A program made the translations under genes and the position numbers. From positions 288,001-352,000 of the forward strand of contig CAWFXA010000002.1 in the NCBI GenBank assembly GCA_963819655.1: a DNA stretch of 64,000 bases, given 5' to 3'. Under the pieces are notes generated by a model that had not been told where the DNA came from, searched no databases, and saw only the letters and a program-made list of their open reading frames with translations. This document shows, piece by piece, positions 49,132 to 63,485 of this stretch; positions within the stretch are counted from its first letter, which is position 1; each line of letters starts with the position of its first letter. Source of the DNA: an uncultured Chloroflexia bacterium. Its GTDB lineage: Bacteria > Chloroflexota > Limnocylindria > Limnocylindrales > CSP1-4.

Positions 49132-49219
49132 GAGTGTGACGCTCTAACGAGCGTTCTGACCACCGAATCCGCGCTCGGCGCGGCGCATGATAGACCTTCA
49201 CACCAGACGCCGAAGCTCC
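49132..49219 (+). repeat. Degenerate right-end module (copy R0), no tRNA fragment
   Basis: GAGTGTGACGCTCTAACGAGCGTT...GAATCCG.GCTCG...TAGACCTTC-N12-GAAGCTCC aligns with 63291-63378. Confidence 0.75.
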
Positions 49220-49251
49220 GGCCGAGTGTGAGCCGGTACGTCCTGAGCGGG

Positions 49252-49908
49252 CTACGCTCCCGATTCCGGCGGCAGGAGCGCTGCGATCATCTGCTCGGCC
49301 GCCAGCTCTCCGAATCGCTCCGCTGACCACCCTCGGCGAATCACGAGCAGCTCGTACAACTCGGGCGCTGTGTAGGTCCACAAGATGTCGCGGGCATCGT
49401 TGAGGGTCAGTTCAGTGCGGATGTCGCCACGCTCGAAGAGCGTGCGCGCGTTTATCTCCATCCGTCGCAGCCGGAGTTCATCCACCTCTGCGACCAGCTC
49501 GGCCATCCGCACATCCGACGCGGCTGCGGCGCGGATCAGCAGCACGACCGGCGTGACACGCGATGCCACTTCCGTGATGAACCCGCCCCAACCTCGGATG
49601 AGACTTCGTGGGTCGCCCTCGGTGGTGCGGATCGCATCCGAACGTTCCTCCGCGGGAACCGGGCCTGCGCCCTCGAGACTCTCCAGCCAGATCGCACGAA
49701 CGAGTCCAGGCTTCCCGCCGAAGGATTTGTAGATCGTTTCAGGGGAGACGCCCGCTGCAGCTGCGATCGCGCCGATCGTCGTCCCGGCATAACCGTGGTC
49801 GAGAAGGAGGCGACGAGCCGCCTCGAGAATGTCTTGGCGGGTCCTGTCCGCCTGCTGACGGCGTCGCCGAGAGTCGTACCGACGACGGTCCTTGACTGGC
49901 TCTGACAT
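49252..49908 (-). CDS. TetR/AcrR family regulator
   Basis: RRYDSRRR and GYAGTTIGAIAAAAGVSPETIYKSFGGK HTH. Confidence 0.92.
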   Translation of the reverse strand: MSEPVKDRRRYDSRRRRQQADRTRQDILEAARRLLLDHGYAGTTIGAIAAAAGVSPETIYKSFGGKPGLVRAIWLESLEGAGPVPAEERSDAIRTTEGDPRSLIRGWGGFITEVASRVTPVVLLIRAAAASDVRMAELVAEVDELRLRRMEINARTLFERGDIRTELTLNDARDILWTYTAPELYELLVIRRGWSAERFGELAAEQMIAALLPPESGA

Positions 49909-50250: not shown

Positions 50251-53200
50251 TCACCCAGCTGTTCGAGCCACCCGATTGAGGGCAGCGAGCGCCCGTTCGT
50301 CGTCGGCGACCACGGCGACGCTGCCCTTGCGGGTGTCGAGCTCGATGGCCTTGCGGACCGCGGCGATAGCCTCGTCGTGGCGACCTGCGGCCTCCTTGAC
50401 GTCGGCGGCCGCCCGCAGCGTCCAGGCATGGAACGTCAGGAAGTCGGTCGTCTCGAAGTACGCAAGCGCCTCGCTGATGGCTGCGTCGGCCTCTGCGTGC
50501 CGCCCCTCCGCCGCCCTGACTCGGGCGACGGACCCGAGGGCCACCGCCCGGAGCCAGCCGCCGCCCTCAAGACCGCGTGCCGCGGCCGACGCCGCGAGGT
50601 CGCGATCCCCGGCAAGCCAGGCATTGCGGGCCAGGAAACCGGCGAGCATCGCGCTCGGCGCGCCCATCTGGTCCGTCTGCTCGAGGCCGTCCTTCAGTAC
50701 CTCCATCGCGGCGCGCGCATCGCCGGCCACCTGCTCGACGTCGGCCGCCAGCTCGGAGAGGAGCGCACGTGATGCCGCCTGGCCAAGCTCGTCGAGGATC
50801 GCGAGGCACTTGGCCGCTAACTCGCGCGCCTCGTCGAAGCGGCCCAGCCGGGCGACGAGGTGGGCCATCGCGTGCCACATCCAGCTCGCGACGGTCGCGC
50901 TGTCAGGCTCGGCCCGGAGGACCTCCTCGCACCGCCGGATGCCGTCCTCGACGGGCGTCGGGCCGGTGTTGAGGACGGCCGACAACTGAAGGTAGCCCAG
51001 CGCAAGCTCGCGCCGCCGGCCGCCGCGACGCGCGTGTTCGATGGCCCGCATCGCGGCCGCCTCCGCTTCGGCCCCGCGGCCAGCCTCCCAGTGACACGCG
51101 GACAGCAGGTCCCACGCGCGGGCCAGACCGACCTCGTCAGCCGCGTTCTCGAACAGCGCGACCGCCTCGTGGGCATCGGCCTCGGCTCGCTCACGGAGCG
51201 GACCGAGCTCGCTGGCTACCCCCCAGTGCTCGACTTTGGCGTGTGCTTCGAGGCGCCTGTCGCCCGAAGCCCGGGCGCCTTCGACGACATCCTCGAGGAT
51301 GGCGTAGGCGCGCGCCAGCTCACCGGTCTCGCCGAGAGCATCGGCGAGCTCGATGGATAACCACGGACGCTCCGGGTCAAGGAGCGGGAGGAGGGCGACG
51401 GTCCGCTCCAGGAGGTTGACGGCGGCCCGCATGTCGCCTCGCGCGACCGCGCGGTGGGCCGCCGAGCCGAGCCGACTCGCGGCGCGCCCTGCGAGGACGG
51501 CCGAGCGGCCGTCGTCCAGACCGAGCTCGACCCGGTTGCGATGGGCCTGCTCGAAGTGATAGCCGACGATCTCCTCGACCTCCCCCAGCCGATCGCCGGT
51601 GGTCTCCGCCAGCCATTCGGCGAAGCGTTCGTGGAGGGCCGCCCGCTCGGTCTTCGCTACCGAATCGTAGGCGGCGTCACGGATGAGGATGTGGCGGAAG
51701 CGGTACACGCCCTCATCGGCGAGGCGTGGCGACTCCGGCCGGATGAGATCCTTGCGCACCAGCGATGTCAGGCAGCCGGCCACCCGGGGACGCTCGGGCT
51801 CGGGCGAGAGGTGGCTCACCGCTCGGTCCTCGAATACCCGGCCGACGATCGAGGCCCGTTCGGCGACCCCTCGTTCCGTCGGATCGAGCCGGTCGAGGCG
51901 TGCGGCCAGAAGCGCCTGGATGTTCGGCGGGATCGGGATGCGGTCGAGTCCGTCGGCGACCCCCCAGCGCTCCCCGTCCGCCGGCCGGATGAAGCCGCCG
52001 TCGACGAGCATCGCGATGAGCTCCTCGAGGTACAGCGGGTTCCCCTCGGCCGCGTCGCTGATCCGGTTGCGCAAGGAGGCAGGCAGCGCGGCTCCCGGGA
52101 CCAGCTGATCGATCAGGACGGTTGCCGCGGACTCGCCCAGTGGCTCGAGCAGGATGGCCGTGGCGTTCAAGCGGCCGCCGCCCCACATGGGACGATCCTC
52201 GAGCAGTTCCGGACGCGCCGAGGCGATGATCAGGACTGCCGATCCGCGGATGAGATCGGCCAGGTGCTCGATGAGGTCGAGCAGGGTCGGCTCGGCCCAA
52301 TGGATGTCGTCGACGATAAGGACGACCGGTCGATCGATCGCGACCCATTCGACCAGCCGGCGGAGCGCCCAGAAGAGCTCCTCCTGGCGAGCCCGACCGG
52401 GCTCGAGCCCGAGGACCTCGGCCAGCCGGCCAGCGATCAGCCGGTCCTCGGGCGCCTCAGGGAGCAGGGCATCGAGCCGGCCGCGCGCGGCGGCCGCGTC
52501 GTCGGTCTCCTTGATCCCCGCCACGGCCCGGACGATCTCGATGACCGGCCAATAGGTGATGCCCTCGCCGTACGGCAGGCAACGGCCGCGCAGGACCGTG
52601 ACCCCGTCCGGCAGGGCGGCGACGAATTCGCGCACGAGCCGGCTCTTGCCGACCCCGGCGGTGCCGAAGATCGTCAGTAGCTGGGCCGTCCGGACGCCAA
52701 CCGCCCGATCGAACACGCCGCGCAGGACGCCGAGCTCAGCATCGCGGGCGACCATCGGCCCGTCGGGTCGACGCGGCTGGTCATCCGCGCCAGGGCGGAT
52801 CGCGATGAGGCGTGCGACGGGGACCGGCTCGATCCGGCCACGGACGGCGAGTGGATCGAGGACCTCGAGCTCGGCGACCTCGCGGACCAGTCGGGTCGTC
52901 TCCGGCCCGAGCAGGATCTCGTCCGGGGCCGCCGCCTGCTCGAGTCGCGCGGCGACGTTTACGGTGTCGCCGGTGACGAGCGTCGGCAGGTCCGGTCCGA
53001 CACCGGCGACCACCGGACCCGTGCAGATGCCGGTCCGAACCCGTAACTCGCTCCCGCGCTCGGCGTTCAAGGTGACAAGCGCCTCACGCATCGCGACCGC
53101 GGCGCGCGCCGCCCGGATGGCGTCGTCCTCGTGGACGGATGGCACGCCGAAGACGGCCATGATGGCATCGCCGATGAACTTCTCGACGGTCCCGCCATAG

Positions 53201-53433
53201 CGCTCGATGACATCGCGCATCGCGGCGAAGTAGTCGGTCATGACGTGGCGGACGGCCTCGGGATCGAGCCGCTCGCCCATCGCCGTCGATCCGACGACGT
53301 CGGCGAACAGCACCGTGACCGTCTTGCGGACCTCACGCGGACGGGGCTCGTCGACCACCAGGCGGGCGCCGCATTCGAGACAGAACTTCGCCTGCTCCGG
53401 GTTGTGCGCCTCGCAGTTCGGGCATGCCCTCAC
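50251..53433 (-). CDS. Class III adenylate/guanylate cyclase with zinc ribbon, AAA/STAND ATPase and TPR domains
   Basis: CPNC..CLECG, LFADVVGST, KFIGDA, GDTVNVAARLE, GTAGVGKS, DDIHWA and GNPLYLEE motifs. Confidence 0.92.
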   Translation of the reverse strand: MRACPNCEAHNPEQAKFCLECGARLVVDEPRPREVRKTVTVLFADVVGSTAMGERLDPEAVRHVMTDYFAAMRDVIERYGGTVEKFIGDAIMAVFGVPSVHEDDAIRAARAAVAMREALVTLNAERGSELRVRTGICTGPVVAGVGPDLPTLVTGDTVNVAARLEQAAAPDEILLGPETTRLVREVAELEVLDPLAVRGRIEPVPVARLIAIRPGADDQPRRPDGPMVARDAELGVLRGVFDRAVGVRTAQLLTIFGTAGVGKSRLVREFVAALPDGVTVLRGRCLPYGEGITYWPVIEIVRAVAGIKETDDAAAARGRLDALLPEAPEDRLIAGRLAEVLGLEPGRARQEELFWALRRLVEWVAIDRPVVLIVDDIHWAEPTLLDLIEHLADLIRGSAVLIIASARPELLEDRPMWGGGRLNATAILLEPLGESAATVLIDQLVPGAALPASLRNRISDAAEGNPLYLEELIAMLVDGGFIRPADGERWGVADGLDRIPIPPNIQALLAARLDRLDPTERGVAERASIVGRVFEDRAVSHLSPEPERPRVAGCLTSLVRKDLIRPESPRLADEGVYRFRHILIRDAAYDSVAKTERAALHERFAEWLAETTGDRLGEVEEIVGYHFEQAHRNRVELGLDDGRSAVLAGRAASRLGSAAHRAVARGDMRAAVNLLERTVALLPLLDPERPWLSIELADALGETGELARAYAILEDVVEGARASGDRRLEAHAKVEHWGVASELGPLRERAEADAHEAVALFENAADEVGLARAWDLLSACHWEAGRGAEAEAAAMRAIEHARRGGRRRELALGYLQLSAVLNTGPTPVEDGIRRCEEVLRAEPDSATVASWMWHAMAHLVARLGRFDEARELAAKCLAILDELGQAASRALLSELAADVEQVAGDARAAMEVLKDGLEQTDQMGAPSAMLAGFLARNAWLAGDRDLAASAAARGLEGGGWLRAVALGSVARVRAAEGRHAEADAAISEALAYFETTDFLTFHAWTLRAAADVKEAAGRHDEAIAAVRKAIELDTRKGSVAVVADDERALAALNRVARTAG

Positions 53434-53823
53434 GGGCCGAGTCTAGGCGCGCTGACCGGGCACCGCGCTAGAGGCTTTCATCCCGAGATGTTCGCGTCAG
53501 GGCCTGACGGCCATTGATCTGTCAAAGGAGCTCCCGGCGCAACGTCCCCACCGAGTTGCGAGGAAGCGCGATATGCGCCCGGTAGATCGCCTTATGGCAG
53601 CAGTCAACGACGGTGATCGCGCCGCCTGGGGAGCCTCCTCCGGGTGGTTGTCACGATGAAGAACGGGATCTGCCACGGATTGCTGCCGCCCCACGCATCG
53701 GCCACCCTCGTAGGTGTTCTGGCCGCCGGCGACCGCTCCGAGTCGGCCAATGCCTCGTCGATGTGGACCTCTTCTTCGACCGTGCCGCCCGCGTCCTCGT
53801 CGAGTTCGAACGGATCGTCGCCA

Positions 53824-53888
53824 GACCGCCTGAGCGTTGTGGCCACCCGAGTGGGACCCCGAGCGAAACGGGTGGAGTTTTACGCTCT
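53824..53888 (+). repeat. Left-end module, copy L1
   Basis: 62/65 nt identical to 59222-59286, with the first 49 nt identical. Confidence 0.9.
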
Positions 53889-54462
53889 AGGATTCCTGCT
53901 CGGCCGTGCGCAGTAGGGCCAGGGCGTTCTGGATGCCCTGCTCCAGGACCTCGTCGGCAAGCTTCTGATCGGACAGGGCGCGGGAGACCTGGAGCGTCCC
54001 GACCATCAGGGCGAAGACGCTGAGGGTCCTGACGCGCGCTGATTGGGGATCTTCCGCTGCCAATCGGGCGGCAGCGTCATCGATGATCGCCAGCTGCCCA
54101 TCGGTGTAGGCGCGCTTCACGGCGTCGGACGAGCGGGCGATCTCGTCGAGGAGCGCGGCCGATGGACAGCCGCCCTCGGTGTCGTCGCGGTGCTGAGGCG
54201 ACAGATAGCCGCTAACGATTTCCTCGAGCGACTGCGTGCTGTATCGCTCGCGCTGCTCGCGGAGCTGGTCCGCGACCGTGCTCGCGACGAGATCCTCCTT
54301 CGAGTCGAAGTGGGCGTAGAAGGCGCCGTTGGTCAGCCCGGCGTCGGCCATGAGCGTCGCCACCCCGGAGCCATCGATGCCGTCGCGCTTGAGCCGACGG
54401 CCTGCCGCCTCGATGATCCGCCCCCGCGTCGCCTGCTTGTGCTCTTTCCCGTACCGCGCCAT
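53887..54462 (-). CDS. TetR/AcrR family regulator
   Basis: AGLTNGAFYAHFDSKEDL and HRD...GCP motifs; the stop codon lies inside the repeat site. Confidence 0.9.
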   Translation of the reverse strand: MARYGKEHKQATRGRIIEAAGRRLKRDGIDGSGVATLMADAGLTNGAFYAHFDSKEDLVASTVADQLREQRERYSTQSLEEIVSGYLSPQHRDDTEGGCPSAALLDEIARSSDAVKRAYTDGQLAIIDDAAARLAAEDPQSARVRTLSVFALMVGTLQVSRALSDQKLADEVLEQGIQNALALLRTAEQES

Positions 54463-54499
54463 CTGCGACTCCCTCATTGGGAAGGGTTCGTCCTTCCTC

Positions 54500-54533
54500 T
54501 TGACATCCATTATATGTCATGCGTAATATTACG
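54500..54533 (+). promoter_or_regulatory. Promoter/operator of the SDR operon
   Basis: TTGACA...TAATAT; palindromes TGACAT-N7-ATGTCA and CGTAATATTACG. Confidence 0.6.
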
Positions 54534-54564
54534 ACCATCAGCCAATTAGCGCAAGGAGTCCACG

Positions 54565-55380
54565 ATGACATCAGCCAAGCCAGTCGCGCTCGTGACGGGC
54601 GCCTCCTCCGGCATCGGGAATGCAGCCGCCCTCGCCCTCGTCACGGCCGGTTTCGAGGTGGTCGGCACGAGCCGGAAGACGTCCGGCGTCGCTCCAGTCG
54701 ACGGCGTCACGTTCCTCGACCTCGACGTGACCAGTGACGAGTCGGTTAGCTCGGCGGTCGGGCGCGTGATCGAGCGGTTCGGGCGGCTCGACGTGCTGGT
54801 CAACAACGCGGGCATCGGGGCAGCCGGGGCCGCCGAAGAAAGCTCCGTCGCCCAGGACCAGCGCGTCTTCGATATCAACTTCTTCGGGCTCGTCCGAATG
54901 ACGAAAGCGGTCCTCCCGCACATGCGCGCGGCCGGAAGGGGTCGGATTATCAGCATCTCCTCGGTGCTCGGGCTCGTCCCCGCTCCGTACATGGCCAGTT
55001 ACGCCGCCACCAAGCACGCGATCGAGGGCTACTCCGAGTCGGTCGACCACGAGGTTCGGGAGCACGGCATCCGCGTGCTTCTCGTCGAGCCCGGCTACAC
55101 GCGGACCGGCTTCGACGCCAACGCCATCCAGCCCGACGCACCGTTGCCGATCTACGCGCTGCAGCGGCACGTCTTCGACGGGGTGTTGGCGCGAGGCATG
55201 GCAGACGGCGATGACCCGGCCATCGTCGCCAAGGCGATCGTCGCGGCGGCGACGGACCCGAAGCCGAAGCTGCGCTACACCGCCGGCCCGGCGGCCGGAC
55301 GCGTCAGCGTCCTGCGCCGCTTCGTTCCCACGCGGGTCTTCGACCGGCAGATCCGGAAGCTCAACCGCCTGCCCGCCTGA
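54565..55380 (+). CDS. SDR family oxidoreductase
   Basis: TGASSGIG, VNNAG and YAATK motifs. Confidence 0.92.
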   Translation: MTSAKPVALVTGASSGIGNAAALALVTAGFEVVGTSRKTSGVAPVDGVTFLDLDVTSDESVSSAVGRVIERFGRLDVLVNNAGIGAAGAAEESSVAQDQRVFDINFFGLVRMTKAVLPHMRAAGRGRIISISSVLGLVPAPYMASYAATKHAIEGYSESVDHEVREHGIRVLLVEPGYTRTGFDANAIQPDAPLPIYALQRHVFDGVLARGMADGDDPAIVAKAIVAAATDPKPKLRYTAGPAAGRVSVLRRFVPTRVFDRQIRKLNRLPA

Positions 55381-55417
55381 AGCCAATCCTCAATCAGCCA
55401 TACCAAGGAGACCCGTC

Positions 55418-56278
55418 ATGAGCACCATGAGCATCGACCCCGTCATCACGTCCTACGCGATGGCGCCGGCCCTCACCATCACCGCAGGCGACGCGACCTA
55501 CGCCTATCGCGAGCTCGGACCGAAGGGCGGGATCCCCGTGATCCTCTTTGTCCACCTTGCTGCGACCCTCGACAACTGGGACCCGCGCATCGTCGACCCC
55601 ATCGCCAGAGAGCACCATGTCATCGCATTCGACAACCGCGGCGTCGGCGCCTCCACCGGCCAGGTTCCCGACAGCGTCGAAGCGATGGCCGACGACGCCT
55701 ACGCCTTCATCCGCGCGCTCGGCTTCGACGAGGTCGACATCTTCGCCTTCTCCCTCGGCGGCTTCGTCGCCCAGGCTCTCGTGATCAAGCACCCGGATCT
55801 GGTCCGCAAGTTGGTCCTCACCGGGACCGGCCCTGCCGGAGGGAAGGACATCGACAAGGTCGCCGGCATCACCTACTGGGACATGTTGCGCGCGGCCCTG
55901 ACCCGGTCGGACCCGAAGGAGTTCCTGTTCTTCAACCGCAACGCCACCGGCAAGCCCGCCGCCCGCGCCTTCGTCAACCGACTCACGGAGCGCACCGTCG
56001 ACCGGGACGCCGCGATCTCGGTGAAGGCTTTCCAGACCCAGCTCAAGGCGATCAAGAAGTGGGGTCGCTCGGCCCCTGCCGACCTGTCGAAGGTCACCCA
56101 GCCCACCTTGATCGCCAACGGCGACAACGACCGGATGGTGCCCTCCGTGCTATCCGAGGACCTGCACCGCCGCATCCGCGGCTCCGAGCTCGTGATCTAC
56201 CCCGACTCCGGCCACGGCGGCATCTTCCAGTTCCACGACACCTTCGTCCCGGTCGCCGTCGAGTTCCTCGACCGCTGA
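55418..56278 (+). CDS. Alpha/beta fold hydrolase
   Basis: FDNRGVG, AFSLGG, GDNDRMVP and YPDSGHG motifs. Confidence 0.9.
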   Translation: MSTMSIDPVITSYAMAPALTITAGDATYAYRELGPKGGIPVILFVHLAATLDNWDPRIVDPIAREHHVIAFDNRGVGASTGQVPDSVEAMADDAYAFIRALGFDEVDIFAFSLGGFVAQALVIKHPDLVRKLVLTGTGPAGGKDIDKVAGITYWDMLRAALTRSDPKEFLFFNRNATGKPAARAFVNRLTERTVDRDAAISVKAFQTQLKAIKKWGRSAPADLSKVTQPTLIANGDNDRMVPSVLSEDLHRRIRGSELVIYPDSGHGGIFQFHDTFVPVAVEFLDR

Positions 56279-56305
56279 CCGCACCCTACGAAGGAAGGCA
56301 AGAAG

Positions 56306-57100
56306 GTGGCTACGACACGTCAAGCGGCGAAGAAGCCCCTCGTCTCATCGATCCTGCTGTGGATGCGGACCGATCAGCCCCGTCAGCAAGGCATGGACTA
56401 CTGGAAGGGCCCGCACTCGAAGATCATCTCCGCGACGCCGGGGATGGAGGAGTACCGCCAGATCCATCTGGCGGAGAACAATCCCGGGCTGTGGCCCGCC
56501 ATCCGCGGCGTCGAAACGGTCATCCCCGCCAACCGCCGGATCGACGGGGTCGCCGAGGTCACGTTCACGTCCGTTCTCTCCCCGCTGCGGGGCCGCAAGC
56601 AGACCGGGCTCGCGTACAAGGATGAGGTGAACGTGTTCCGGCGCACCCTGCTCTACGCGGGGCTACCGAACTCGGCCCGCTGGTACAACGTGGCCGGTCC
56701 CGGTGAGAAGGCGGGAGCGCGAAGCCTGATCTACCTCCGCAGGCGGGAAGGCGTCAAGACCGGTGCGTTCCGGAGGTTTCTCACGGACGAGCTTGTTCCC
56801 GCTCTCGTCAAGACAGGAGCCCTGCGGGAACTCCGAACCCAGGTCTTCATGCCCTGGATCAAGAGACTCTGGGACACCCCGAACGTCGCGCACGACAACC
56901 CCGCTGACCAGCGGTTCCAGGCCTCACTGGTCCTCGGCTTCACCGATACCAACGCCCTGTGGACGTTCTTCCGTGGCGGAGAGGTCGCCTCGCTTTCAAG
57001 CAAGTTGCCCGAGTTCGTTTCCGCCGTCCACGCCTACGAGGTCACCGAAGCGCTGACCTACGTGAAGGACGGCAAGATCCTCCCGCACAATCAGACGTAA
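56306..57100 (+). CDS. Hypothetical protein, possible EthD-like dimeric alpha/beta barrel
   Basis: YWKGPH, YRQIH and DGVAEVTF resemble EthD-type segments. Confidence 0.65.
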   Translation: MATTRQAAKKPLVSSILLWMRTDQPRQQGMDYWKGPHSKIISATPGMEEYRQIHLAENNPGLWPAIRGVETVIPANRRIDGVAEVTFTSVLSPLRGRKQTGLAYKDEVNVFRRTLLYAGLPNSARWYNVAGPGEKAGARSLIYLRRREGVKTGAFRRFLTDELVPALVKTGALRELRTQVFMPWIKRLWDTPNVAHDNPADQRFQASLVLGFTDTNALWTFFRGGEVASLSSKLPEFVSAVHAYEVTEALTYVKDGKILPHNQT

Positions 57101-57167
57101 CGGCGCGCCCCGGTCCCGAGCTCCGGGCCACGACGCACGGTGCGATCAGGTGGAGTGCCGGTCATCG

Positions 57168-58011
57168 TCAGGCCTCCGCCACGTCGAGCGAGACGAAGCG
57201 CTCGCGGTTGAAGTCGATGTCGGCCTGCAGGTCGGCGACCTTCTGCTCGGTGGAAGCGATCGAGTCGGCGCCGGCGATGAACCGGCGTCGCGGCGGCTCC
57301 TCGCTGGCGATCGTCACGAGCGCCTGGGCGAGCTTGGCCGGGTCGCCTGACTGGCGGCCATTCTGGGAGGTCCACCAGTCGATCTGGGCAGCGCGTCGCT
57401 CGGCGTAGTCGTCGATCGACAGTTGGGCGAAGTTCGTCGACTCAGGCGTCAGCAGCTCGGTCCGGAAGAAGCCGGGATTGACGATCGTGGTGTGGATGCC
57501 GAACGGCTGCGACCTCCGGCCGCAACGACTCCATCCAGCCCTCGATCCCGAACTTGGACGCCGCGTAGGCCGTCCCGAACTCGAAGCCGGAAAGCCCCGC
57601 GCTCGAGGAGATCGTGATGACGTGACCGGATCGCTGCCGGCGCATCACGGGCAGGACGGCGCGGGTGACGTTCATCGGGCCGATGAGCGTCGTCGCGAGC
57701 TGGCGCTCCATCTGCTCCGGCGTCAGCTCCTCGAAGAAGCCGGCGTTGAAGTTGCCGGCGTTGTTGACGAGGACATCGATCCGCCCGAATCGCTCGACCG
57801 CGGCCTGGACCGCGGCCAAGGCGTCGGCGGGGCTGGTCACGTCGAGCCTCACGGCGAGCAGGTCGGCAGGGTCGCCGACCGCCTTCGTCACCGCCTCAGG
57901 GTTGCGGCCCGTCGCGACCACGGAATTGCTGGCGGCCAGCGCGGCCTTGGCGATGTCGACGCCCATGCCGCGCCCGGCACCCGTGATGAACCAGACCTTC
58001 CTTTCGGTCAT
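57168..58011 (-). CDS. SDR family oxidoreductase, frameshifted
   Basis: WFITGAGRGMG, NNAG and YAASKFG motifs; C-terminus continues in another frame (PGFFRT, PGDPAKLA). Confidence 0.88.
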
Positions 58012-58149
58012 CGGAAATCTCCTTTACGTGGTGGTTTGACCTTCTGCGGGCCATCCAACCACCCGCCATCCCGGTCGGAAAGGCACGCGTTATCGGGGTA
58101 TTGCTGATGCCTGCCTACCAGCGCACGAGGGGCGTAGGGTGGGCGTGAC

Positions 58150-59032
58150 GTGAGCAGCGCCGACGAGATCCGCGAGTTCCTGACGACGCGCCGGGCGAAG
58201 CTGTCCCCCGAGCGCGCCAGCGTGCCGAGGTATGGCCGCAAGCGGCGAGTGCCCGGCCTGCGGCGCGAAGAGGTCGCCCTCCGCGCCGGGATCAGCGTCG
58301 AGTGGTACACGCGCCTGGAGCGCGGCGTCGCGCGGGGCGTCTCCGATGAAGTCCTCGACGCCATCGGCAGCGCGCTCCAGCTCGACGAGGCCGAGCGCGC
58401 CCACCTCGCGGATCTCGTGCGCACCGCGAACGCGGAGCGGCCGCCACGACGAACCTCGACCCCGCAGGGCGTGCGTCCGAGCCTCGCCCGGCATCGTCGA
58501 TGTGATGGGCCCGATCCCGTCCTGCGTGACGAACGGTCGGCTCGACGTCCTCTACGCGAACGATCTCGCGGAGGCGCTCTTCTCGGATGTCTTCCGTGAC
58601 CCCGTCCGCCCGCCCAACTTCGCCCGCTTCGTGTTCCTCGATCCACGAGCGAGGACGTTCTACCGCGACTGGGAGAAAGCTGCCAATGACACCGTCGCAG
58701 TGCTGCGCGCGGCGGCCGGCCGGGACCCGTACGACCGCAGCCTGTCCGACCTGGTCGGGCAGCTCTCGACGCGGAGCGACGAGTTCCGGGTCCGCTGGGC
58801 GGCGCACGATGTCGCGTTCCATCGCACGGCCACCAAGCACATGCACCATCCGCTCGTGGGCGACCTGACCCTCGCCTTCGAGATGCTCGAGCTCCCAGCC
58901 GATCCGGGGCTGTCGGTGCTCATCTACTCCGCCGAGCCCGGCTCACCGTCTGAAGAGGCCATGCGCGAGCTGGCGCGCTGGAGCGAGACGCGGACCAAGC
59001 TCTCGGCAGCTCGGGCCGGATCCGAGACCTGA
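58150..59032 (+). CDS. XRE/MmyB-like HTH regulator, frameshifted
   Basis: RRVPGLRREEVA, YTRLERG, NFARFVFLDP and HHPLVGDLTL motifs. Confidence 0.9.
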
Positions 59033-59063
59033 CCCAGCACGCCGGGCCATCTCGATGCCCGCA

Positions 59064-59180
59064 GAGTTTTACGCTCTAGGAGCGATGTGGCGGCCAAGGC
59101 GTGTGGGCAATGCCTCGGAATAGACCTACAAACCAAAGCCGACGGTCGAGCCGCGCTCAGCAGGTATCATCGCGGTCCGC
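59064..59180 (+). repeat. Right-end module, copy R1 (includes -10 box TATCAT)
   Basis: Aligns with 63291-63409: GAGTTTTACGCTCTA.GAGCG.TGTGGC, TAGACCT...GCCGA.GGTC and GGTAT.AT. Confidence 0.8.
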
Positions 59181-59220
59181 GCGCCTGTAGCTCAGGGGAT
59201 AGAGCGTCGCCTCCGGAGCC
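59181..59220 (+). pseudogene. 5' half of tRNA-Arg(CCG), att-like remnant
   Basis: GCGCCTGTAGCTCAGGGGATAGAGCGTCG-CCTCCGGAGCC matches 63410-63450 with 1 substitution and 1 gap; it stops 3 nt after the anticodon loop. Confidence 0.9.
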
Positions 59221-59221
59221 T

Positions 59222-59286
59222 GACCGCCTGAGCGTTGTGGCCACCCGAGTGGGACCCCGAGCGAAACGGGCTGAGTCTTACGCTCT
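59222..59286 (+). repeat. Left-end module, copy L2
   Basis: Near-identical to 53824-53888; directly follows the tRNA fragment. Confidence 0.9.
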
Positions 59287-59328
59287 GTGCGGAAGACCAC
59301 GGTGCAAGGAGTGGGCTCGCGCTCGGCT

Positions 59329-61614
59329 TCAAGGCGCTCGTCCTCGGTCTGCGAGCGAGTAGAGCCGGATGACTCCATCGCGTCCGGTCGTGTATGCGTC
59401 GCCATTGGGCCCGATCACAGCCAGCTCGAGGCCGCGTCCTGACCACGATGAGATGAGGTCACCAGTGGGGGCGAACAGGTGCAGCCGATCGGGCCCGTCC
59501 GTCGCGTACAGTTCGCCATTCGGCCCGGAAGCAAGCAGCACCGGCTCGCGCAGAAGACCCTCTCCGATCTGTCGGACGATCGTGCCGTCCGGGGCGATCA
59601 CCGTGATCCTCCAGGGTGCCCCGCGACCGCCACTGGCGAAATAGACCGTTCCGTCGGGACCCACGACCACGTTGTTCGTGCACCGATCCCTGACGTCCGC
59701 GCCTCCCGCCAATGTCCGAACGTAGTTGCCTGATTGTTCGAAAACCTGGATCCGGCACGTGGGGTCGTCAACCACATAGACGAGCCCGTCCGGGCCAACA
59801 CTGATGCCGAAGGGACTGACGAACTGGCCGGGCCCTGACCCGAAGGTTCCCCATGACCCGATCATCTCTCGGTCGGCATCGAAGTGCACGACCCGCTGGT
59901 GCTCCGAATCGGCAATGAAGAAGCCGCCATCCGGGAGGAAGGCAACTGCACCCCAGCCATCCCGGTCGGGCTGGACGAGGGCGAGGGCGGCATCACCGGT
60001 CGGCTGCCATGTTTCGACGACTCCTCCGTCACGACCGACGATCACGAACCGGGCACGTGTGGGGTCGGCGATCCACAGCCGCCCGTCTGGTGCGCCGTTC
60101 AGGAAGAACGGCCCCTCGATCCCAAGATCTCGGGCCGTGCGGGCCCACACCTCAACGAGTGCAACGGTCGAGGTGATGATGTGCGCCGACGACGATGGGC
60201 GCTCGGCCGTCGCACTGGAAGCGACCCCTGCGGTGGGCGACGGACTGCTGGCACGAGCTTCGGCGGCGGTCAGCGCGTACACACTCCCATCCTGTGTTCC
60301 AACGATCAGGTGCGCGCCGGCGACTGCGGGCGAGAAGGGGATGCCGTCGAGTAGGAAGGTCCCGAGGACGTCGCCGGTGGCCGCCTCGAGGGCCTCGATC
60401 CCCCCGTGCGAGGCGAGGTACAGCACTCCACCAGCCTTGGTCGGCGATGAGCCGACCTGAACGCCGAGGCTTCGTGTCCATATCTCGGCACCGTCGTCGG
60501 CCCGGAGCGCGACCACGTCGCCGTCGACCGCGGCTGCGTAGACGGTCCCCGTCTCGGGGTCGACGACCGGAGCGACGACTGTCTGTCCGTTTGGCCGCCG
60601 GTGACGCCATATCCCACGGCCGGATTCGAGATCGACCGCGTAGAGAACGCCGCGATTCCCTTCGAGATCAAGGCCTGCGAGCAGGACCTTCTCGCCAGCG
60701 ATGACGGGTGTATCGGTGAAGACCGGCGTCGCAAAGCGCCACAACTCGCGTGCGGTTGGGGAGTCGAAGGCCACGGCGATCCCGACATCGGTCGGGACGA
60801 CGAGGATCGAACCCTGGACCGCGATCGACCGCGTCGAGGGCCCCGGCAGGTCTTCCTGCCAGACGACCTCGTGCGTTTCGAGATCGATGGCCAGAACCTT
60901 GCCGGTCGCGCCCGGGACGGGTCGTCCACGGGACTGTGCCGAAGAGGTCGAGACGTACAGCCGGTCGCCGACGATCGCCGGACTACCGGCAGCGTAGCCA
61001 TCGAGCGGTATTTGCCAGGCGACATGGCCAGTCCGTCGATCCACGGCGACGAGATCCCGATCCTCCGTCCCGACGATCACCAACTCACCGGCCACAGAAG
61101 GCGACGACCAGGCAACGTTCAGATCGGACGACCACAGCTGGACGTGGCGTCGGAGGTCGAACGCTCGGAACTGGCCATCGATCGCTCCCACGTAGGCGAC
61201 GCCGTCCACGATCGCCGCCGACGATACGATCGGACCGGAGAGCGTCGTCTGGAAGTCGATGGTCATGGCCCCACCGGGTCCGGGCCCCGTTACCACGCCG
61301 GTCCTTGCCGCGTCACCGCGGAACGTCGAGCTGTCCGACAGGGGCTCCGATCTCCGGAGGAGCTGGGCGCCCACCGCGGCGATGCCGGCCAAGAGCGACA
61401 TCAGGAGGAGGGCGGTCATCGCCAGCCGGACGGGTCGCGGCAATGCGACGACCTTCGCCATGATCCGGCTTTCGAGCGGGGCGGGCTGCTGCGGGGTGAG
61501 GCGGACCGCGGCCGCGATGGAGTCGCGCAGATCTGCAGGTGCCAGCGTCGCCTGGGGCAGTGCCAGAGATCGGTTCAGCAGCTCCCGTGTCAACGGCGGA
61601 AGGTTCCGGCTCAT
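59329..61614 (-). CDS. Membrane-anchored PQQ-like/BamB beta-propeller plus NHL-repeat protein (putative anti-sigma/sensor)
   Basis: Short N-terminal domain, TM helix, FRGDAARTG, repeated A.D..TG..W blades, then WGTFGSGPGQFVSPFGI. Confidence 0.85.
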   Translation of the reverse strand: MSRNLPPLTRELLNRSLALPQATLAPADLRDSIAAAVRLTPQQPAPLESRIMAKVVALPRPVRLAMTALLLMSLLAGIAAVGAQLLRRSEPLSDSSTFRGDAARTGVVTGPGPGGAMTIDFQTTLSGPIVSSAAIVDGVAYVGAIDGQFRAFDLRRHVQLWSSDLNVAWSSPSVAGELVIVGTEDRDLVAVDRRTGHVAWQIPLDGYAAGSPAIVGDRLYVSTSSAQSRGRPVPGATGKVLAIDLETHEVVWQEDLPGPSTRSIAVQGSILVVPTDVGIAVAFDSPTARELWRFATPVFTDTPVIAGEKVLLAGLDLEGNRGVLYAVDLESGRGIWRHRRPNGQTVVAPVVDPETGTVYAAAVDGDVVALRADDGAEIWTRSLGVQVGSSPTKAGGVLYLASHGGIEALEAATGDVLGTFLLDGIPFSPAVAGAHLIVGTQDGSVYALTAAEARASSPSPTAGVASSATAERPSSSAHIITSTVALVEVWARTARDLGIEGPFFLNGAPDGRLWIADPTRARFVIVGRDGGVVETWQPTGDAALALVQPDRDGWGAVAFLPDGGFFIADSEHQRVVHFDADREMIGSWGTFGSGPGQFVSPFGISVGPDGLVYVVDDPTCRIQVFEQSGNYVRTLAGGADVRDRCTNNVVVGPDGTVYFASGGRGAPWRITVIAPDGTIVRQIGEGLLREPVLLASGPNGELYATDGPDRLHLFAPTGDLISSWSGRGLELAVIGPNGDAYTTGRDGVIRLYSLADRGRAP

Positions 61615-62183
61615 TCCGACACCTCCCGGAGCGCCTTCGCGAGGGCTCGGCGCGCACTGAAGAGACGCCACATGACCGTCCCCGAAGGGACGCGAAGGAG
61701 ATTCGCGATCTCGGCGACCGGTCGGCCTTCGCCGTGATGCAAGGCGAGCACGGTTCGCTGGTCGCCGGACAACCGGCCGAATGCCTGGCGGACGATGTCC
61801 TCGTCGGCCAGCGCTTCGAGAGGCGACTGGCTTGTCGGATGGTCGGCCGGAAGCGAGAGCTCCTCGATCGGGATCTCCCGGACCCGGGCCTTTCGGCGCC
61901 GGAGCAGCATCCGGCACTCGTTCACGACGATCCGATCGAGCCACGCATCGAAGCGCGCGACATCACGGAGTCGAGGGAGTTCTCGCCAGGCTGCCAAGAA
62001 CGCCTCCTGGCATGCGTCGCGGGCGTCCCATTCAGTTCGCAGGATGGCCAGAGCCGTGCGATAGGCTCGGTCGAGCCGAGCGTCGATCAACCGTTCGAAT
62101 GCCTGCACATCGCCGGCGCGGGCCAACTCGACGAGCGAGGCGTCGCTCGTCGAGCCGACCGAGGTGCTCGCGTGTGCCGTCAT
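61611..62183 (-). CDS. ECF-type RNA polymerase sigma factor
   Basis: GDVQAFERL, DARDACQEAF, FDAWLDRIVVNEC and EIANLLRVPSGTV.WRLFSAR motifs. Confidence 0.92.
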   Translation of the reverse strand: MTAHASTSVGSTSDASLVELARAGDVQAFERLIDARLDRAYRTALAILRTEWDARDACQEAFLAAWRELPRLRDVARFDAWLDRIVVNECRMLLRRRKARVREIPIEELSLPADHPTSQSPLEALADEDIVRQAFGRLSGDQRTVLALHHGEGRPVAEIANLLRVPSGTVMWRLFSARRALAKALREVSE

Positions 62184-62244
62184 CGGGTTGCAGTGTGCCC
62201 TCGACGGACGGGTCAGCCGGCGAACAATGGGCAGAGAGCGGAGG

Positions 62245-63105
62245 TCATGGCAACTCCAACAGTCCGGCGACGGCAGGCCATGTGATCTCTGCGACCTCCG
62301 CCTGTCCGCGCACGTTCAGGTGGTTCCGATCGCTGGAGAAATCCTCGGGGCGTTCAATGTACGCGGCGCGAGCTCCGTCGTCCGTCCGGCAATTGGGCAC
62401 CGTGGCGCACACCCGGGCCTGCTCCGTCTCATATTTCTCGATGATGGATGTCAGGGTGTCGGAAGGGTCAGGGTCGCACAGCATCCACGAAGGGGGTCGT
62501 CCGAGCTGTCCGACCACCAGGATCCGTGAGTCGGGTGAGGCCGTGGTTACGACCTGCAAGGCGTCTGCGAGGGCGACACCGAACTCGGGTACGTGCGTGC
62601 GATCGGTCCCGTCGCAGCGGATGTCGCTGTCGATCGTTTGGACTACGACGAGTGCCGGGGTGGGAACAGTTTCGAGAGCGGATCGCGCCTGCCCCGCCAG
62701 CGAAGACGCGGGCGCACCACCTTGCGCAGTGTTGGCAACATGGCCCTCGGTCTCCGGACGGACCGCGACGAGCCGCCGGTAGATGCTGTTGACCTCAGGC
62801 GATGTGCCAGTCGCCCACGAGTTTTCGAGCGCAACCCGACCAGGACGGCTCGGATCGGAGTTCTCACCAGTCAAGCCGGAGTGCCCGATCGCTATGACAC
62901 CGACCGGCTTGCCGGGGTTGGCCGCGGTCGCGGTCGATGTGGCGGCCGGGCCGGCCGCGGCCGATGTGGTAGCCGGGCCGGTCGCGGCCGATGTGGTGGC
63001 CGGGCCGGTCGCGGCCTGGTCTCCGATGTCTGCACTGCGGCAGCCACTGACCGCCAACGCCAAGGCGATGATGGCGGCCACGGTGCCAGCTGATCTTGTG
63101 TTCAT
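62245..63105 (-). CDS. SGNH/GDSL hydrolase-like lipoprotein
   Basis: GGAG RBS, VSGC lipobox, IGHSGLTG (block I-like) and DRNHLN (DxxH). Confidence 0.75.
   Translation of the reverse strand: MNTRSAGTVAAIIALALAVSGCRSADIGDQAATGPATTSAATGPATTSAAAGPAATSTATAANPGKPVGVIAIGHSGLTGENSDPSRPGRVALENSWATGTSPEVNSIYRRLVAVRPETEGHVANTAQGGAPASSLAGQARSALETVPTPALVVVQTIDSDIRCDGTDRTHVPEFGVALADALQVVTTASPDSRILVVGQLGRPPSWMLCDPDPSDTLTSIIEKYETEQARVCATVPNCRTDDGARAAYIERPEDFSSDRNHLNVRGQAEVAEITWPAVAGLLELP
62926..63016 (-). repeat. 27-bp tandem repeat x3.4 encoding an AATGPATTS linker
   Basis: Units start at 62926, 62953, 62980 and 63007 (partial). Confidence 0.85.
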
Positions 63106-63290
63106 GATGTGCTCCGGGGTAGTCCGGATGTGCATCCTTTGCCTCCTGATCGGGTCTCTGCATTCGCAGAGTTCCTTCAGAAGTCCAGATGCGAGGGAGC
63201 ACCGATCCATTTGGCGCTCCTCTGTAAGAAACACGTGCGCCGAGTTGTCGCCGTACGTGCTCCCTCCGCTCGGACCGTTCGGCCGCCGGC

Positions 63291-63409
63291 GAGTTTTACG
63301 CTCTACGAGCGTTGTGGCCGCGGAATCCGTGCTCGCCGCAGCGGCAAGGTAGACCTTCGAACCACAGGCCGAAGGTCCATCCAAGCTCGGCGGGTATGAT
63401 CAGCGCCTC
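63291..63409 (+). repeat. Right-end module, copy R2 (tRNA promoter region, -10 TATGAT)
   Basis: Homologous to 59064-59180 and 49132-49219; contains the inverted repeat GACCTTCG-N10-CGAAGGTC. Confidence 0.8.
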
Positions 63410-63485
63410 GCGCCTGTAGCTCAGTGGATAGAGCGTCGGCCTCCGGAGCCGAAGGTCGCAGGTTCGAATCCTGTCGGGCGCGCCA
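63410..63485 (+). tRNA. tRNA-Arg (CCG)
   Basis: 76-nt cloverleaf, anticodon loop CTCCGGA, GTTCGAATCC, encoded CCA. Confidence 0.97.

What the first reader, a model, noticed from the sequence alone, without database searches (positions are those of the whole stretch)
53875..63319. Recurring GAGTTTTACGCTCTA site forms direct repeats around each cargo and mirrors the tRNA D-arm
Seen: copies at 49132 (GAGTGTGACGCTCTA), 53875, 59064, 59273 (GAGTCTTACGCTCTG) and 63291, all in one orientation. The 53875 and 59064 copies share a perfect 18-bp repeat (GAGTTTTACGCTCTAGGA) that brackets cargo 1, and the TetR stop codon lies inside it. GAG-N4-ACGCTCTA is the exact dyad partner of the tRNA's TAGAGCGT-N4-CTC around the palindromic CTC-CG-GAG anticodon region. 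In R copies it continues as CGCTC-N3/4-GAGCG. Inference: it is a recombinase half-site. The dyad around a central dinucleotide fits a serine-integrase att site, and it may allow cargo exchange between fixed ends.
Basis: partly seen in the sequence, partly recalled or inferred. Interest (0 to 1): 0.75.

Follow-up and report, generated by a model that had tools for sequence, protein, structure and literature searches.

The report
Attachment-arm motif of tRNA-Arg cassettes
The repeated 15-base motif marks the outer edges of the attachment sites of small mobile gene cassettes stacked in front of a tRNA-Arg gene in a soil Chloroflexota bacterium, and is probably an extra docking site for the tyrosine integrase that moves them.

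Summary
Five same-strand copies lie at the stated coordinates. They are the only copies with 2 or fewer mismatches in the 3.49-Mb genome.

The motif is the last conserved block of both arms of a unit of about 240 bp: motif, promoter leader (U), first 41 nt of tRNA-Arg(CCG), 67-nt arm (R2), motif. This unit separates integrase-less cassettes stacked upstream of the tRNA gene.

The same unit recurs in 122 distinct copies from Limnocylindrales genomes and soil metagenomes. The motif lies about 62 nt past the junction in 97 of 103 units, and conservation falls from 0.89 to 0.42 right after it.

Crossover is inferred in the anticodon stem-loop, not at the motif.

The matching recombinase is a Xer-like tyrosine integrase, absent from this genome. 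In three relatives it sits directly 5' of an identical or near-identical tRNA-Arg(CCG), with two motif copies in the spacer.

The motif mirrors tRNA positions 20-34. Its most likely role is an accessory integrase-binding half-site; this is inferred, not shown.

The serine-integrase reading is not supported. Cargo swapping at the motif is unshown.

Earlier scan notes describe sister arrays at other tRNA-Arg genes. This is a new variant of a known kind.

The parts
49132..49240 (+). U'': decayed right-arm copy. It holds the motif with 2 mismatches at 49132-49146, then CGAGCGT, GAATCCG, TAGACCTTC and GCCGAAG. No tRNA half or R2 follows it.
   Evidence: 79.8% identical to U over 89 nt. Sequence read. 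A TetR-family ORF (49252-49908, minus strand) abuts it.
53823..53889 (+). R2a: the left arm of cassette A. It ends in the motif at 53875-53889. The tRNA half that should precede it is missing.
   Evidence: Repeat D3 is 94% identical to 59218-59286. A close relative, L066, shares the left flank at 98% and there has the full U-half-R2 unit.
53890..57105 (.). Cassette A cargo: TetR-family regulator 53887-54510 (-), short-chain dehydrogenase 54565-55380 (+), alpha/beta hydrolase ending at 56278 (+), and an unknown 264-aa ORF 56306-57100 (+).
   Evidence: Pfam. The same cassette, 82-94% identical, occurs in L073, L064, L038, L066, L157, L086 and L093. In L064 and L073 it ends about 30 nt after the last stop codon, where the motif plus U follow.
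57106..59063 (.). Segment B, the remainder of a second cassette: a truncated dehydrogenase 57442-58011 (-) and an MmyB-like regulator 58232-59032 (+). The unit that should separate A from B has been deleted.
   Evidence: Pfam: the dehydrogenase match stops at profile position 168 of 195. No motif or U follows the stop at 57100, unlike in L064 and L073.
59064..59180 (+). U': the right arm of segment B. It holds the motif at 59064-59078 and a promoter-like GGTATCAT just before the tRNA half.
   Evidence: 77% identical to U plus the tRNA 5' half over 164 nt. Sequence read.
59181..59220 (+). Displaced 5' half of tRNA-Arg(CCG), positions 1-41 with one base missing. It ends just past the anticodon loop.
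   Evidence: 95% identical to tRNA positions 1-41. ARAGORN calls no tRNA here.
59221..59287 (+). R2b: the left arm of cassette 2. It ends in the motif at 59273-59287 (2 mismatches).
   Evidence: Family consensus.
59288..63290 (.). Cassette 2 cargo: a PQQ/NHL beta-propeller protein (ORF 59329-61944, -), an ECF sigma factor 61611-62183 (-), and a weakly GDSL-like ORF from 62245 (-) that contains 27-nt tandem repeats.
   Evidence: Pfam. Repeat D2. 72% identical over 2.8 kb to L115, and its first 229 nt are 97% identical to L134.
63291..63409 (+). U: the right arm of cassette 2. It holds the motif at 63291-63305, the palindrome ACGCTC-TAC-GAGCGT, a pseudo-core (TAGACCTT..GCCGAAGGTC) and GGTATGAT just before the tRNA.
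   Evidence: Sequence read. Alignment of units.
63410..63485 (+). The working tRNA-Arg(CCG). By inference its first half came from cassette 2 and its second half from the chromosome. TAGAGCGTCGGCCTC at 63429-63443 mirrors the motif.
   Evidence: ARAGORN. Rfam tRNA at 72 bits. The downstream flank is conserved in relatives.

Best explanation
The motif is the outermost conserved block of both arms of the attachment site of a family of small integrative cassettes. These cassettes insert into the anticodon stem-loop of tRNA-Arg(CCG) from the 5' side.

Each cassette has this layout: left arm R2 ending in the motif, then cargo, then a right arm that often starts with the motif and carries a leader with a promoter plus tRNA positions 1-41. 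Each insertion gives the tRNA a new first half and pushes the old half upstream. Cassettes therefore stack, and each cargo ends up bracketed by direct motif copies.

The enzyme is a Xer-like tyrosine integrase without an arm-binding domain. Larger members of the family encode it directly 5' of the tRNA. It is absent from this genome, so the window's cassettes are either moved in trans or are now static.

The motif is an inverted copy of the tRNA stretch left of the crossover (positions 20-34). It most likely acts as an accessory binding site for that integrase, two or three per attachment site. In that role it would help a simple recombinase build a directional complex, and possibly regulate its own gene.

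Shown: the anatomy, the conservation, the link to the integrase, and the cassettes as discrete units.

Inferred: the crossover point, binding of the integrase to the motif, and movement in trans.
For: Locus-specific:
- The motif occurs only here in the genome at 2 or fewer mismatches.

Family-wide (122 distinct units from 121 loci):
- The tRNA 5' half precedes the junction in 102 of 117 units.
- The motif (3 or fewer mismatches) lies 50-63 nt past the junction in 97 of 103 units, and at exactly +62 in 79.
- A second copy lies upstream of the half in 36 of 90 units, 29 of them at -118 to -122.
- The control gave 4 of 20,000 random 120-nt stretches with such a match.

Boundary of conservation (75 units):
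- Mean major-base fraction is 0.93 in the tRNA half, 0.90 and 0.86 in R2, 0.89 in the motif, and 0.42 in the next 15 nt.

Integrase:
- A family of 300-350-aa tyrosine recombinases lies divergent from, and directly 5' of, tRNA genes. This holds in 24 of the 26 tRNA-bearing loci (30 loci read) and in 27 of the 28 tRNA-bearing loci (29 read).
- Four of these loci are at tRNA-Arg(CCG).
- In G426 (same genus), G066 and G084, the spacer between the integrase gene and the tRNA carries the motif at -95 and again at -43.
- In G426 the left end of the 27.7-kb integrase-bearing element is tRNA half plus R2 plus motif, 93% identical to the window's.
- The integrase has only a SAM-like core-binding domain and a catalytic domain. 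Its nearest named relatives are XerC, XerD and XerA.

Half-site copy:
- The reverse complement of the motif matches tRNA positions 20-34 at 11 of 15 bases, with 8 in a row.
- In the -50 to -15 window upstream of integrase-linked tRNAs, the inverted match to the locus's own tRNA beats the match to other tRNAs in 11 of 14 tRNA types (mean 8.6 against 7.7 of 12; Wilcoxon p = 0.006).

Cassettes as units:
- One PIN-toxin cassette, 89-99% identical, occurs in 5 genomes. Upstream sequence is unalignable in 9 of 10 pairs (a 39-nt match in the tenth) and downstream sequence in 9 of 10 pairs.
Against: - No binding or recombination has been measured.
- G000 lacks the matching integrase: the best hit is 32% identical. 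No activity here can be claimed.
- The upstream motif is missing from 54 of 90 right arms, so it is not obligatory there.
- The unrestricted test for inverted matches to the locus's own tRNA showed no excess: about 9 of 12 for own tRNA against a mean of 8.7 for others.
- The -50 to -15 window was chosen after seeing where the hits clustered, so p = 0.006 is optimistic.
- By my own arithmetic, an 8-base match between one motif and a 76-nt tRNA has a chance of roughly 0.02. That is suggestive only.
- The copy at -43 in integrase-bearing elements lies where the element's tRNA promoter must be, so a promoter role cannot be separated from a binding role.
Confidence: 0.6

Rival explanations
1. The motif is a transcription signal. 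It would be part of the promoter that each element must bring for the tRNA (and for the integrase gene), or a T-rich stop for the dead tRNA half.
For: - In integrase-bearing and short-leader elements, a motif copy lies at -43 to -29 from the tRNA start, and no other -10-like box is visible there.
- The motif contains TACGCT, which fits the TAnnnT form. That consensus is recalled, not taken from a call.
- In R2, a G+C-rich stem (CCACCCG..CGGGTGG) precedes the GTTTT of the motif.
Against: - Long leaders have their own GGTATCAT or GGTATGAT box at -19 and keep the motif at about -119.
- The near-universal R2 copy follows a dead tRNA half. In many cassettes it faces a convergent gene (TetR, PIN, MazF).
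- The promoter and terminator scan found nothing at any copy.
- A promoter has no reason to co-vary with the target tRNA.
Confidence: 0.15
2. The motif is bound by another protein of the system, such as an excision or directionality factor or a host nucleoid protein, and not by the integrase.
For: - Its position at the outer edges of both arms, 55-150 nt from the crossover, is where accessory factors bind in classical attachment sites (established knowledge of lambda-type sites, recalled).
- A 123-aa ORF of no known family lies next to the integrase gene in G426 (L237:17335-17706).
Against: - The motif resembles the core half-site and co-varies with the target tRNA. That points to the protein that reads the tRNA.
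- Cassettes carry no shared small gene.
Confidence: 0.12
3. One reading: the motif copies are themselves crossover sites, so cargo can be swapped between fixed arms (motif-by-motif recombination).
For: - Perfect direct repeats flank the cargo: an 18-mer at 53875 and 59064.
- Conservation ends exactly at the motif.
- In leaders, the motif plus the following GAGCGT form an inverted pair.
Against: - A lone motif is a single half-site. The palindrome in U has only a 3-bp spacer, and it is lost in integrase-bearing elements.
- Native tRNA loci without cassettes have no motif (G030, G012, G017), so first insertions must use the tRNA itself.
- Arrays end inside the tRNA, not at a motif.
- No empty unit was seen; the shortest cassette is 1,137 bp.
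Confidence: 0.06
4. The unit acts as folded single-stranded DNA or RNA, like an integron attC site. The motif would pair with the tRNA D-arm or with the GAGCGT at the start of R2.
For: The motif is complementary to tRNA positions 20-27 and to GAGCGT in R2. The predicted fold of R2a nests two stems.
Against: - Fold energies are no better than shuffles: z = +0.36 for half plus R2b, and -0.93 for R2a.
- On 75 aligned units, the covariation score was 0.081 against 0.090 in shuffles (462 of 500 shuffles reached it) and 0.119 against 0.121 (290 of 500) for the helices tested.
- The D-arm:motif pairing drafted was not counted.
- No Rfam family matches.
Confidence: 0.04
5. The motif is a half-site of a large serine integrase that acts on the CTC-CG-GAG dyad.
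For: The anticodon stem-loop of tRNA-Arg(CCG) is nearly palindromic around CG.
Against: - G000 has no resolvase-domain (PF00239) gene. The genome is 91% complete, and the control search rang in 12 of 14 reference genomes.
- The recombinase physically linked to motif-bearing sites is a tyrosine recombinase.
Confidence: 0.02

Closest known systems
tRNA-gene genomic islands integrated by tyrosine integrases at the anticodon loop, in the rare reversed (5'-distal) orientation. Zhao and Williams 2002 was seen only as a citation. [quoted passage not shown]
   Same: Both show site-specific insertion into a tRNA gene, a displaced tRNA fragment as a direct repeat, restoration of the gene by element sequence, and a tyrosine integrase next to the tRNA in complete members.
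   Different: Here the element supplies the promoter and the first 41 nt of the tRNA. Most members are integrase-less cassettes of 1-6 kb in tandem. The integrase is a small Xer-like enzyme. The arms are built from repeats of a mimic of the core half-site.
Tandem accretion of integrase-less elements: CIMEs beside ICESt-type elements (recalled), and tycheposon islands of Prochlorococcus (bioRxiv 10.1101/2020.12.28.424599, passages read).
   Same: Successive insertions at one tRNA push older elements inwards. Partial tRNAs separate them, and degenerate members lack an integrase.
   Different: The polarity is opposite (5' halves with promoters). The attachment unit of about 240 bp is far better conserved than the cargo. 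Single-gene cassettes are shared between genomes in different contexts.
Accessory recombinase-binding repeats of simple tyrosine recombinases. One example is the irs site of Tn4430 TnpI, with core IR1-IR2 plus direct repeats DR1 and DR2 (PMC7157771, passage read). Another is the DR1 and DR2 repeats of integron attI (recalled).
   Same: The recombinase has no arm-binding domain. Extra copies of the core-type motif lie beside the core, in direct orientation and close to the recombinase gene.
   Different: Here the copies lie on both sides of the core, 55-150 nt away. The core is a tRNA anticodon stem-loop. The reaction is integration, not resolution. Binding is not shown.
Integrons (IntI, attI, attC cassettes).
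   Same: Both are rows of small, mostly one- or two-gene cassettes without their own recombinase, rich in toxin-antitoxin genes and regulators, separated by a conserved recombination unit.
   Different: No integron integrase is adjacent. There is no attC-type hairpin signal. Gene orientation is mixed. Each unit carries a promoter and a tRNA half. Insertion is into a tRNA gene.

Membership tests
tRNA-integrating island or cassette (tyrosine integrase, anticodon-loop site, 5'-side orientation) | A direct repeat of a tRNA fragment marks the element ends, with an intact tRNA at one end. | tested here: met
   59181-59220 is 95% identical to tRNA positions 1-41, and the tRNA at 63410-63485 is intact.
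tRNA-integrating island or cassette (tyrosine integrase, anticodon-loop site, 5'-side orientation) | Identity with the tRNA ends at a fixed point in or next to the anticodon stem-loop. | tested here: met
   In 102 of 117 units the 31 nt before the junction pattern match the tRNA, and every junction is at position 41 or 42. The exact exchange point is inferred.
tRNA-integrating island or cassette (tyrosine integrase, anticodon-loop site, 5'-side orientation) | An integrase gene lies inside the element, next to the tRNA. | tested here: not met
   No integrase lies in the window's cassettes or near them. Larger members in G426, G066, G084 and G236 do have one. The window's cassettes are therefore non-autonomous members.
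Large serine integrase att site | A serine recombinase is encoded in the element or the genome. | tested here: not met
   PF00239 gave 0 hits in G000.
Lambda-type arm site | The integrase has an N-terminal arm-binding domain, and the arm sequence is unlike the core. | tested here: not met
   Pfam finds only a SAM-like core-binding domain and a catalytic domain in 310- and 330-aa proteins. The motif resembles the core half-site.
Accessory core-type repeats of a simple tyrosine recombinase (TnpI irs or attI type) | Extra copies of the core half-site motif lie beside the core and are bound by the recombinase. | tested here: inconclusive
   The copies and their likeness to the core are seen. Binding cannot be tested with these tools.
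Integron cassette array | An integron integrase with attI lies at one end of the array, and folded attC sites separate the cassettes. | tested here: not met
   No recombinase is adjacent. There is no structural support for a hairpin site.
CIME-type non-autonomous element | The element is flanked by attachment sites of an integrase-bearing relative but lacks recombination genes. | tested here: met
   The arms are shared with the 27.7-kb integrase-bearing element of G426: 93% over half plus R2, and an identical motif.

The most novel reading that the evidence does not exclude
Soil Limnocylindria run a tRNA-based counterpart of the integron.

A clade of small Xer-like integrases is parked directly 5' of many different tRNA genes. 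These integrases capture and stack promoter-bearing, integrase-less cassettes in trans.

What lets a simple recombinase do this without an arm-binding domain is a set of decoy half-sites, of which the motif is one. These copy the target tRNA and co-vary with it.
Probability: 0.3. Interest if true: 0.75.

Novelty: new variant of a known kind. Interest (0 to 1): 0.5.

Why it matters
The finding gives a concrete, testable anatomy for a little-known way of gene capture in an abundant but uncultured soil lineage. That anatomy is a core in the tRNA anticodon stem-loop plus two or three mimics of the core half-site.

If the motif is what recruits a simple Xer-like integrase, it would explain how such enzymes gain direction and specificity without an arm-binding domain.

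It would also define compact attachment sites, each with its partner integrase, for many tRNA targets. Such pairs would be of use for genome engineering.

Finally, it explains why toxin-antitoxin, sigma-factor and regulator genes pile up at tRNA-Arg in these genomes.

Tried and rejected
- Viral contigs: a scan for the junction pattern found nothing.
- Local integrase search: a weak profile built from four integrases of G000 found only one decayed fragment, downstream of the tRNA in L062. It found none in the 80 metagenome loci. Being weak, it proves little.
- Hairpin or attC-like reading: fold energies and pair counts gave no support. The D-arm:motif pairing drafted was not counted.
- Promoter and terminator scan: nothing at any motif copy.
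- Rfam: only the tRNA matched.
- Position-free test of inverted matches to the locus's own tRNA: no excess.
- Public runs: 20 soil or rhizosphere runs hold part of the stretch, but only as short contigs.
  - The laid joints 59205 to 63453-63457 carry other anticodon arms between the two sides, so they are other tRNA genes, not excisions.
  - One contig that goes back from 63375 to 59151 joins homologous points of U and U'.
  - Loose ends at 63450 that read the start of R2 (one contig each in X1 and X4) are too short to tell a circle from a further cassette.
- Left end of the array: the U'' copy at 49132 and the half-less R2a could not be resolved into a clean history. Deletions are the simplest account.
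- timed out and was redone with BLAST.
- The paper PMC139527 is not held.


Full report
**Observation.** The motif GAGTTTTACGCTCTA occurs five times in the window, all on the + strand. The copies are at 49132 (2 mismatches), 53875, 59064, 59273 (2 mismatches) and 63291. Shuffled sequence gives 0.29 on average, and 0 of 100 shuffles reached five. In the whole 3.49-Mb genome these are the only copies with 2 or fewer mismatches; six 3-mismatch matches lie scattered elsewhere.

**Anatomy in the window.**
- A tRNA-Arg(CCG) gene lies at 63410-63485.
- The 119 nt before it (U, 63291-63409) begin with the motif.
- A diverged copy of U (U', 59064-59180, 77% identical) is followed by the first 41 positions of the tRNA (59181-59220, one base missing). 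The copy ends just past the anticodon loop.
- Next comes a 67-nt arm, R2b (59221-59287), which ends in the motif.
- A second R2 (53823-53889, 94% identical) ends in the 53875 copy. A third, decayed U lies at 49132.
- Each cargo therefore sits between an R2 that ends in the motif and a U that begins with it.
- The cargo holds regulators and enzymes (TetR, dehydrogenases, a hydrolase, an MmyB-like regulator, an ECF sigma factor with a beta-propeller protein) and no recombinase.
- The genome has six PF00589 matches, all far away, and no serine recombinase.

**The unit is a family trait.**
- The same layout stands at tRNA-Arg(CCG) in relatives G024, G013, G004 (two in tandem), G016 and G005.
- A pattern for the junction of tRNA and R2 found 41 stretches in species genomes. 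Of these, 38 have titles naming Chloroflexota, Chloroflexi, Chloroflexia or Limnocylindr- MAGs. The other three are titled Myxococcales, Streptomyces and Anaerolineaceae, and all three lack the tRNA half.
- The same pattern found none in viral contigs and 85 stretches in metagenomes, of which 80 loci were listed and read.
- Among 122 distinct units, the tRNA half precedes the junction in 102 of 117.
- The motif (3 or fewer mismatches) lies 50-63 nt past the junction in 97 of 103 units, and at +62 in 79.
- An upstream copy lies within -140 to -20 of the tRNA start in 36 of 90 units, 29 of them at -118 to -122.
- Only 4 of 20,000 random 120-nt stretches of this genome hold such a match.
- Conservation runs at 0.93 (tRNA half), 0.90 and 0.86 (R2) and 0.89 (motif), then drops to 0.42 in the next 15 nt. 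The motif is the last conserved block before the variable cargo.

**Where the exchange happens.**
- Every array ends in a whole tRNA.
- Every inner unit stops at tRNA position 41 or 42.
- tRNA-Arg(CCG) loci without cassettes (G030, G012, G017) have no motif upstream.
- Insertion must therefore use the tRNA itself. The fixed right end of the identity block places the exchange in or next to the anticodon stem-loop. This is an inference from anatomy, in line with the known anticodon-loop class of tRNA integration sites.

**The recombinase.**
- An earlier scan note (e1-3981649) suggested looking directly upstream of the tRNA in relatives.
- A frameshifted integrase lies there at tRNA-Arg(TCT) in G017.
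- One unchanged piece of it found relatives in 82 of 201 genomes of the family.
- Of the 30 loci fetched, 26 hold a tRNA. In 24 of these the integrase gene diverges from the tRNA's 5' end.
- The full integrase of G236 found relatives at E of 1e-60 or lower in 127 of 401 genomes.
- Of 29 loci read, 28 hold a tRNA, 27 of them in the same divergent layout.
- The targets include Arg, Gly, Met, Lys, His, Pro, Thr, Ala, Leu and Val tRNAs.
- These tallies include two or three unpublished genomes (G140, G250, G196), and the locus counts include two loci from G140.
- Four of the loci are at tRNA-Arg(CCG).
- In G426 (same genus), G066 and G084, the tRNA is identical to the window's or differs by one base. 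There the spacer between the integrase gene and the tRNA reads: motif at -95, CAAGCATAGTGGCC, motif variant at -43, CTGAGCACGAAACGG, tRNA.
- In G426 the contig also holds tRNA half plus R2 plus motif at 10-118 and at 5859-5971. The integrase-bearing element therefore spans about 27.7 kb, and its left arm is the same R2 as in the window (93%). Its cargo looks metabolic.
- The integrase has 310-330 residues, a SAM-like core-binding domain and a catalytic domain, and no arm-binding domain. Its nearest named relatives are XerC, XerD and XerA, all below their family cut-offs.
- G000 has no close homologue; the best hit is 32% identical.

**What the motif most likely does.**
- Its reverse complement matches tRNA positions 20-34 (the 3' strand of the D-stem, the 5' strand of the anticodon stem, and the first loop bases) at 11 of 15 bases, eight of them contiguous. 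This is the stretch just left of the inferred crossover.
- Leaders hold further relatives of the same stretch. A pseudo-core (TAGAGCGT..GCCGAAGCTCTA) lies about 60-30 nt before the tRNA in many units. GCCGACGCTCTATC in G024 is the exact reverse complement of tRNA positions 18-31.
- In the integrase clade, the -50 to -15 window before the tRNA matches the inverted sequence of its own tRNA better than that of other tRNAs in 11 of 14 tRNA types (p = 0.006).
- I chose that window after seeing where the best hits of the position-free test fell. The position-free test itself showed no excess. This evidence is therefore suggestive, not firm.
- A simple recombinase that reads the tRNA half-site would also read these copies. 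Accessory core-type repeats are known for TnpI of Tn4430 (PMC7157771, passage read).
- I therefore read the motif as an accessory integrase-binding half-site, two or three per attachment site. The copy next to the integrase gene may also regulate that gene. Binding is not shown.

**Rivals.**
- A promoter role for the -43 copy cannot be excluded. It does not explain the R2 copy, which follows a dead tRNA half and often faces a convergent gene.
- A folded, attC-like site finds no support in fold energies or pair counts.
- The serine-integrase reading lacks an enzyme.
- Crossover at the motif is contradicted by how the arrays end.

**Cassettes as units, and decay in the window.**
- Twenty complete cassettes of 1,137-6,083 bp were listed. 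Two of them are the same contigs fetched twice, leaving 18 distinct.
- A PIN-toxin cassette, 89-99% identical, sits in five genomes with unrelated neighbours.
- The window's "cargo 1" is composite. Its first 3.2 kb is a cassette that elsewhere ends at the equivalent of about 57105 with motif and U. In the window that unit is missing and the next gene is truncated.
- R2a has lost its tRNA half. The close relative L066 keeps it, along with one more cassette.

**Known or new.**
- Insertion at the 5' side of tRNA genes is known but rare (PMC6563490, passage read; Zhao and Williams 2002 was seen only as a citation, and the paper is not held).
- Stacking of elements separated by partial tRNAs is known from tycheposons (passages read).
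- Four earlier notes of this scan describe sister arrays at other tRNA-Arg genes of Limnocylindria. One of them mentions a 14-15-bp repeat of the arm terminus.
- My searches of the held library listed no paper describing such arrays. The top 10 listed held no occurrence of 'Limnocylindria'.
- This report adds four things:
  - the motif as the arm boundary, quantified;
  - the matching integrase for the CCG family, with motif copies beside it;
  - the likeness of the motif to the tRNA half-site;
  - a first co-variation test.

**Limits.** The work is all in silico. Most genomes are incomplete MAGs. The public runs gave only short contigs and no usable junction evidence.

Noticed in passing
G000 contig C3:494406-498651 (outside the window): tRNA-Val(GAC) has a copy of its first 40 nt 4.1 kb upstream. 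The break comes right after the anticodon loop, and the arms are unrelated to R2 or the motif. This is a second 5'-side element in the same genome.
   Followed up: partly
G000 C2:721870-738753, and C3:2310-3366 with C1:9049, 25321 and 31505 (outside the window): Ordinary 3'-side islands. tRNA-Thr(CGT) has a 45-nt 3' repeat 16.8 kb away and two integrase genes between. tRNA-Gln(CTG) lies beside a frameshifted integrase and has three 3'-part copies on another contig.
   Followed up: no
window 62925-63016: Three tandem copies of a 27-nt unit (87-92% alike) lie inside the weakly GDSL-like ORF of cassette 2. They would give a 9-residue protein repeat.
   Followed up: no
window 54754-54814 and 57753-57813: A 61-nt inverted repeat (80% complementary) comes from two paralogous short-chain dehydrogenase genes on opposite strands. 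The second gene is truncated.
   Followed up: partly
loci L167-L236, the 35 nt before integrase-linked tRNAs: A block CTGAGCACGAAAC(C/G)G stands directly before tRNAs of at least ten different specificities in this integrase clade, so it does not follow the target. A relative of it (CCCGAGCGAAACGGG) precedes the motif in R2. Its role is unknown.
   Followed up: partly
window 63450 (runs X1 and X4): One soil-metagenome contig in each run matches the window up to the anticodon stem and then reads the first 8-15 bases of R2. This could be a further cassette at this tRNA in relatives, or a cassette circle. The contigs are too short to tell.
   Followed up: partly
window 50251-53433: A 1,060-aa protein combines a zinc ribbon, an adenylate/guanylate cyclase domain, an AAA ATPase domain and TPR repeats. 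In G016 its homologue is cassette cargo. Here it lies left of the recognisable array, between the decayed U'' and R2a.
   Followed up: partly
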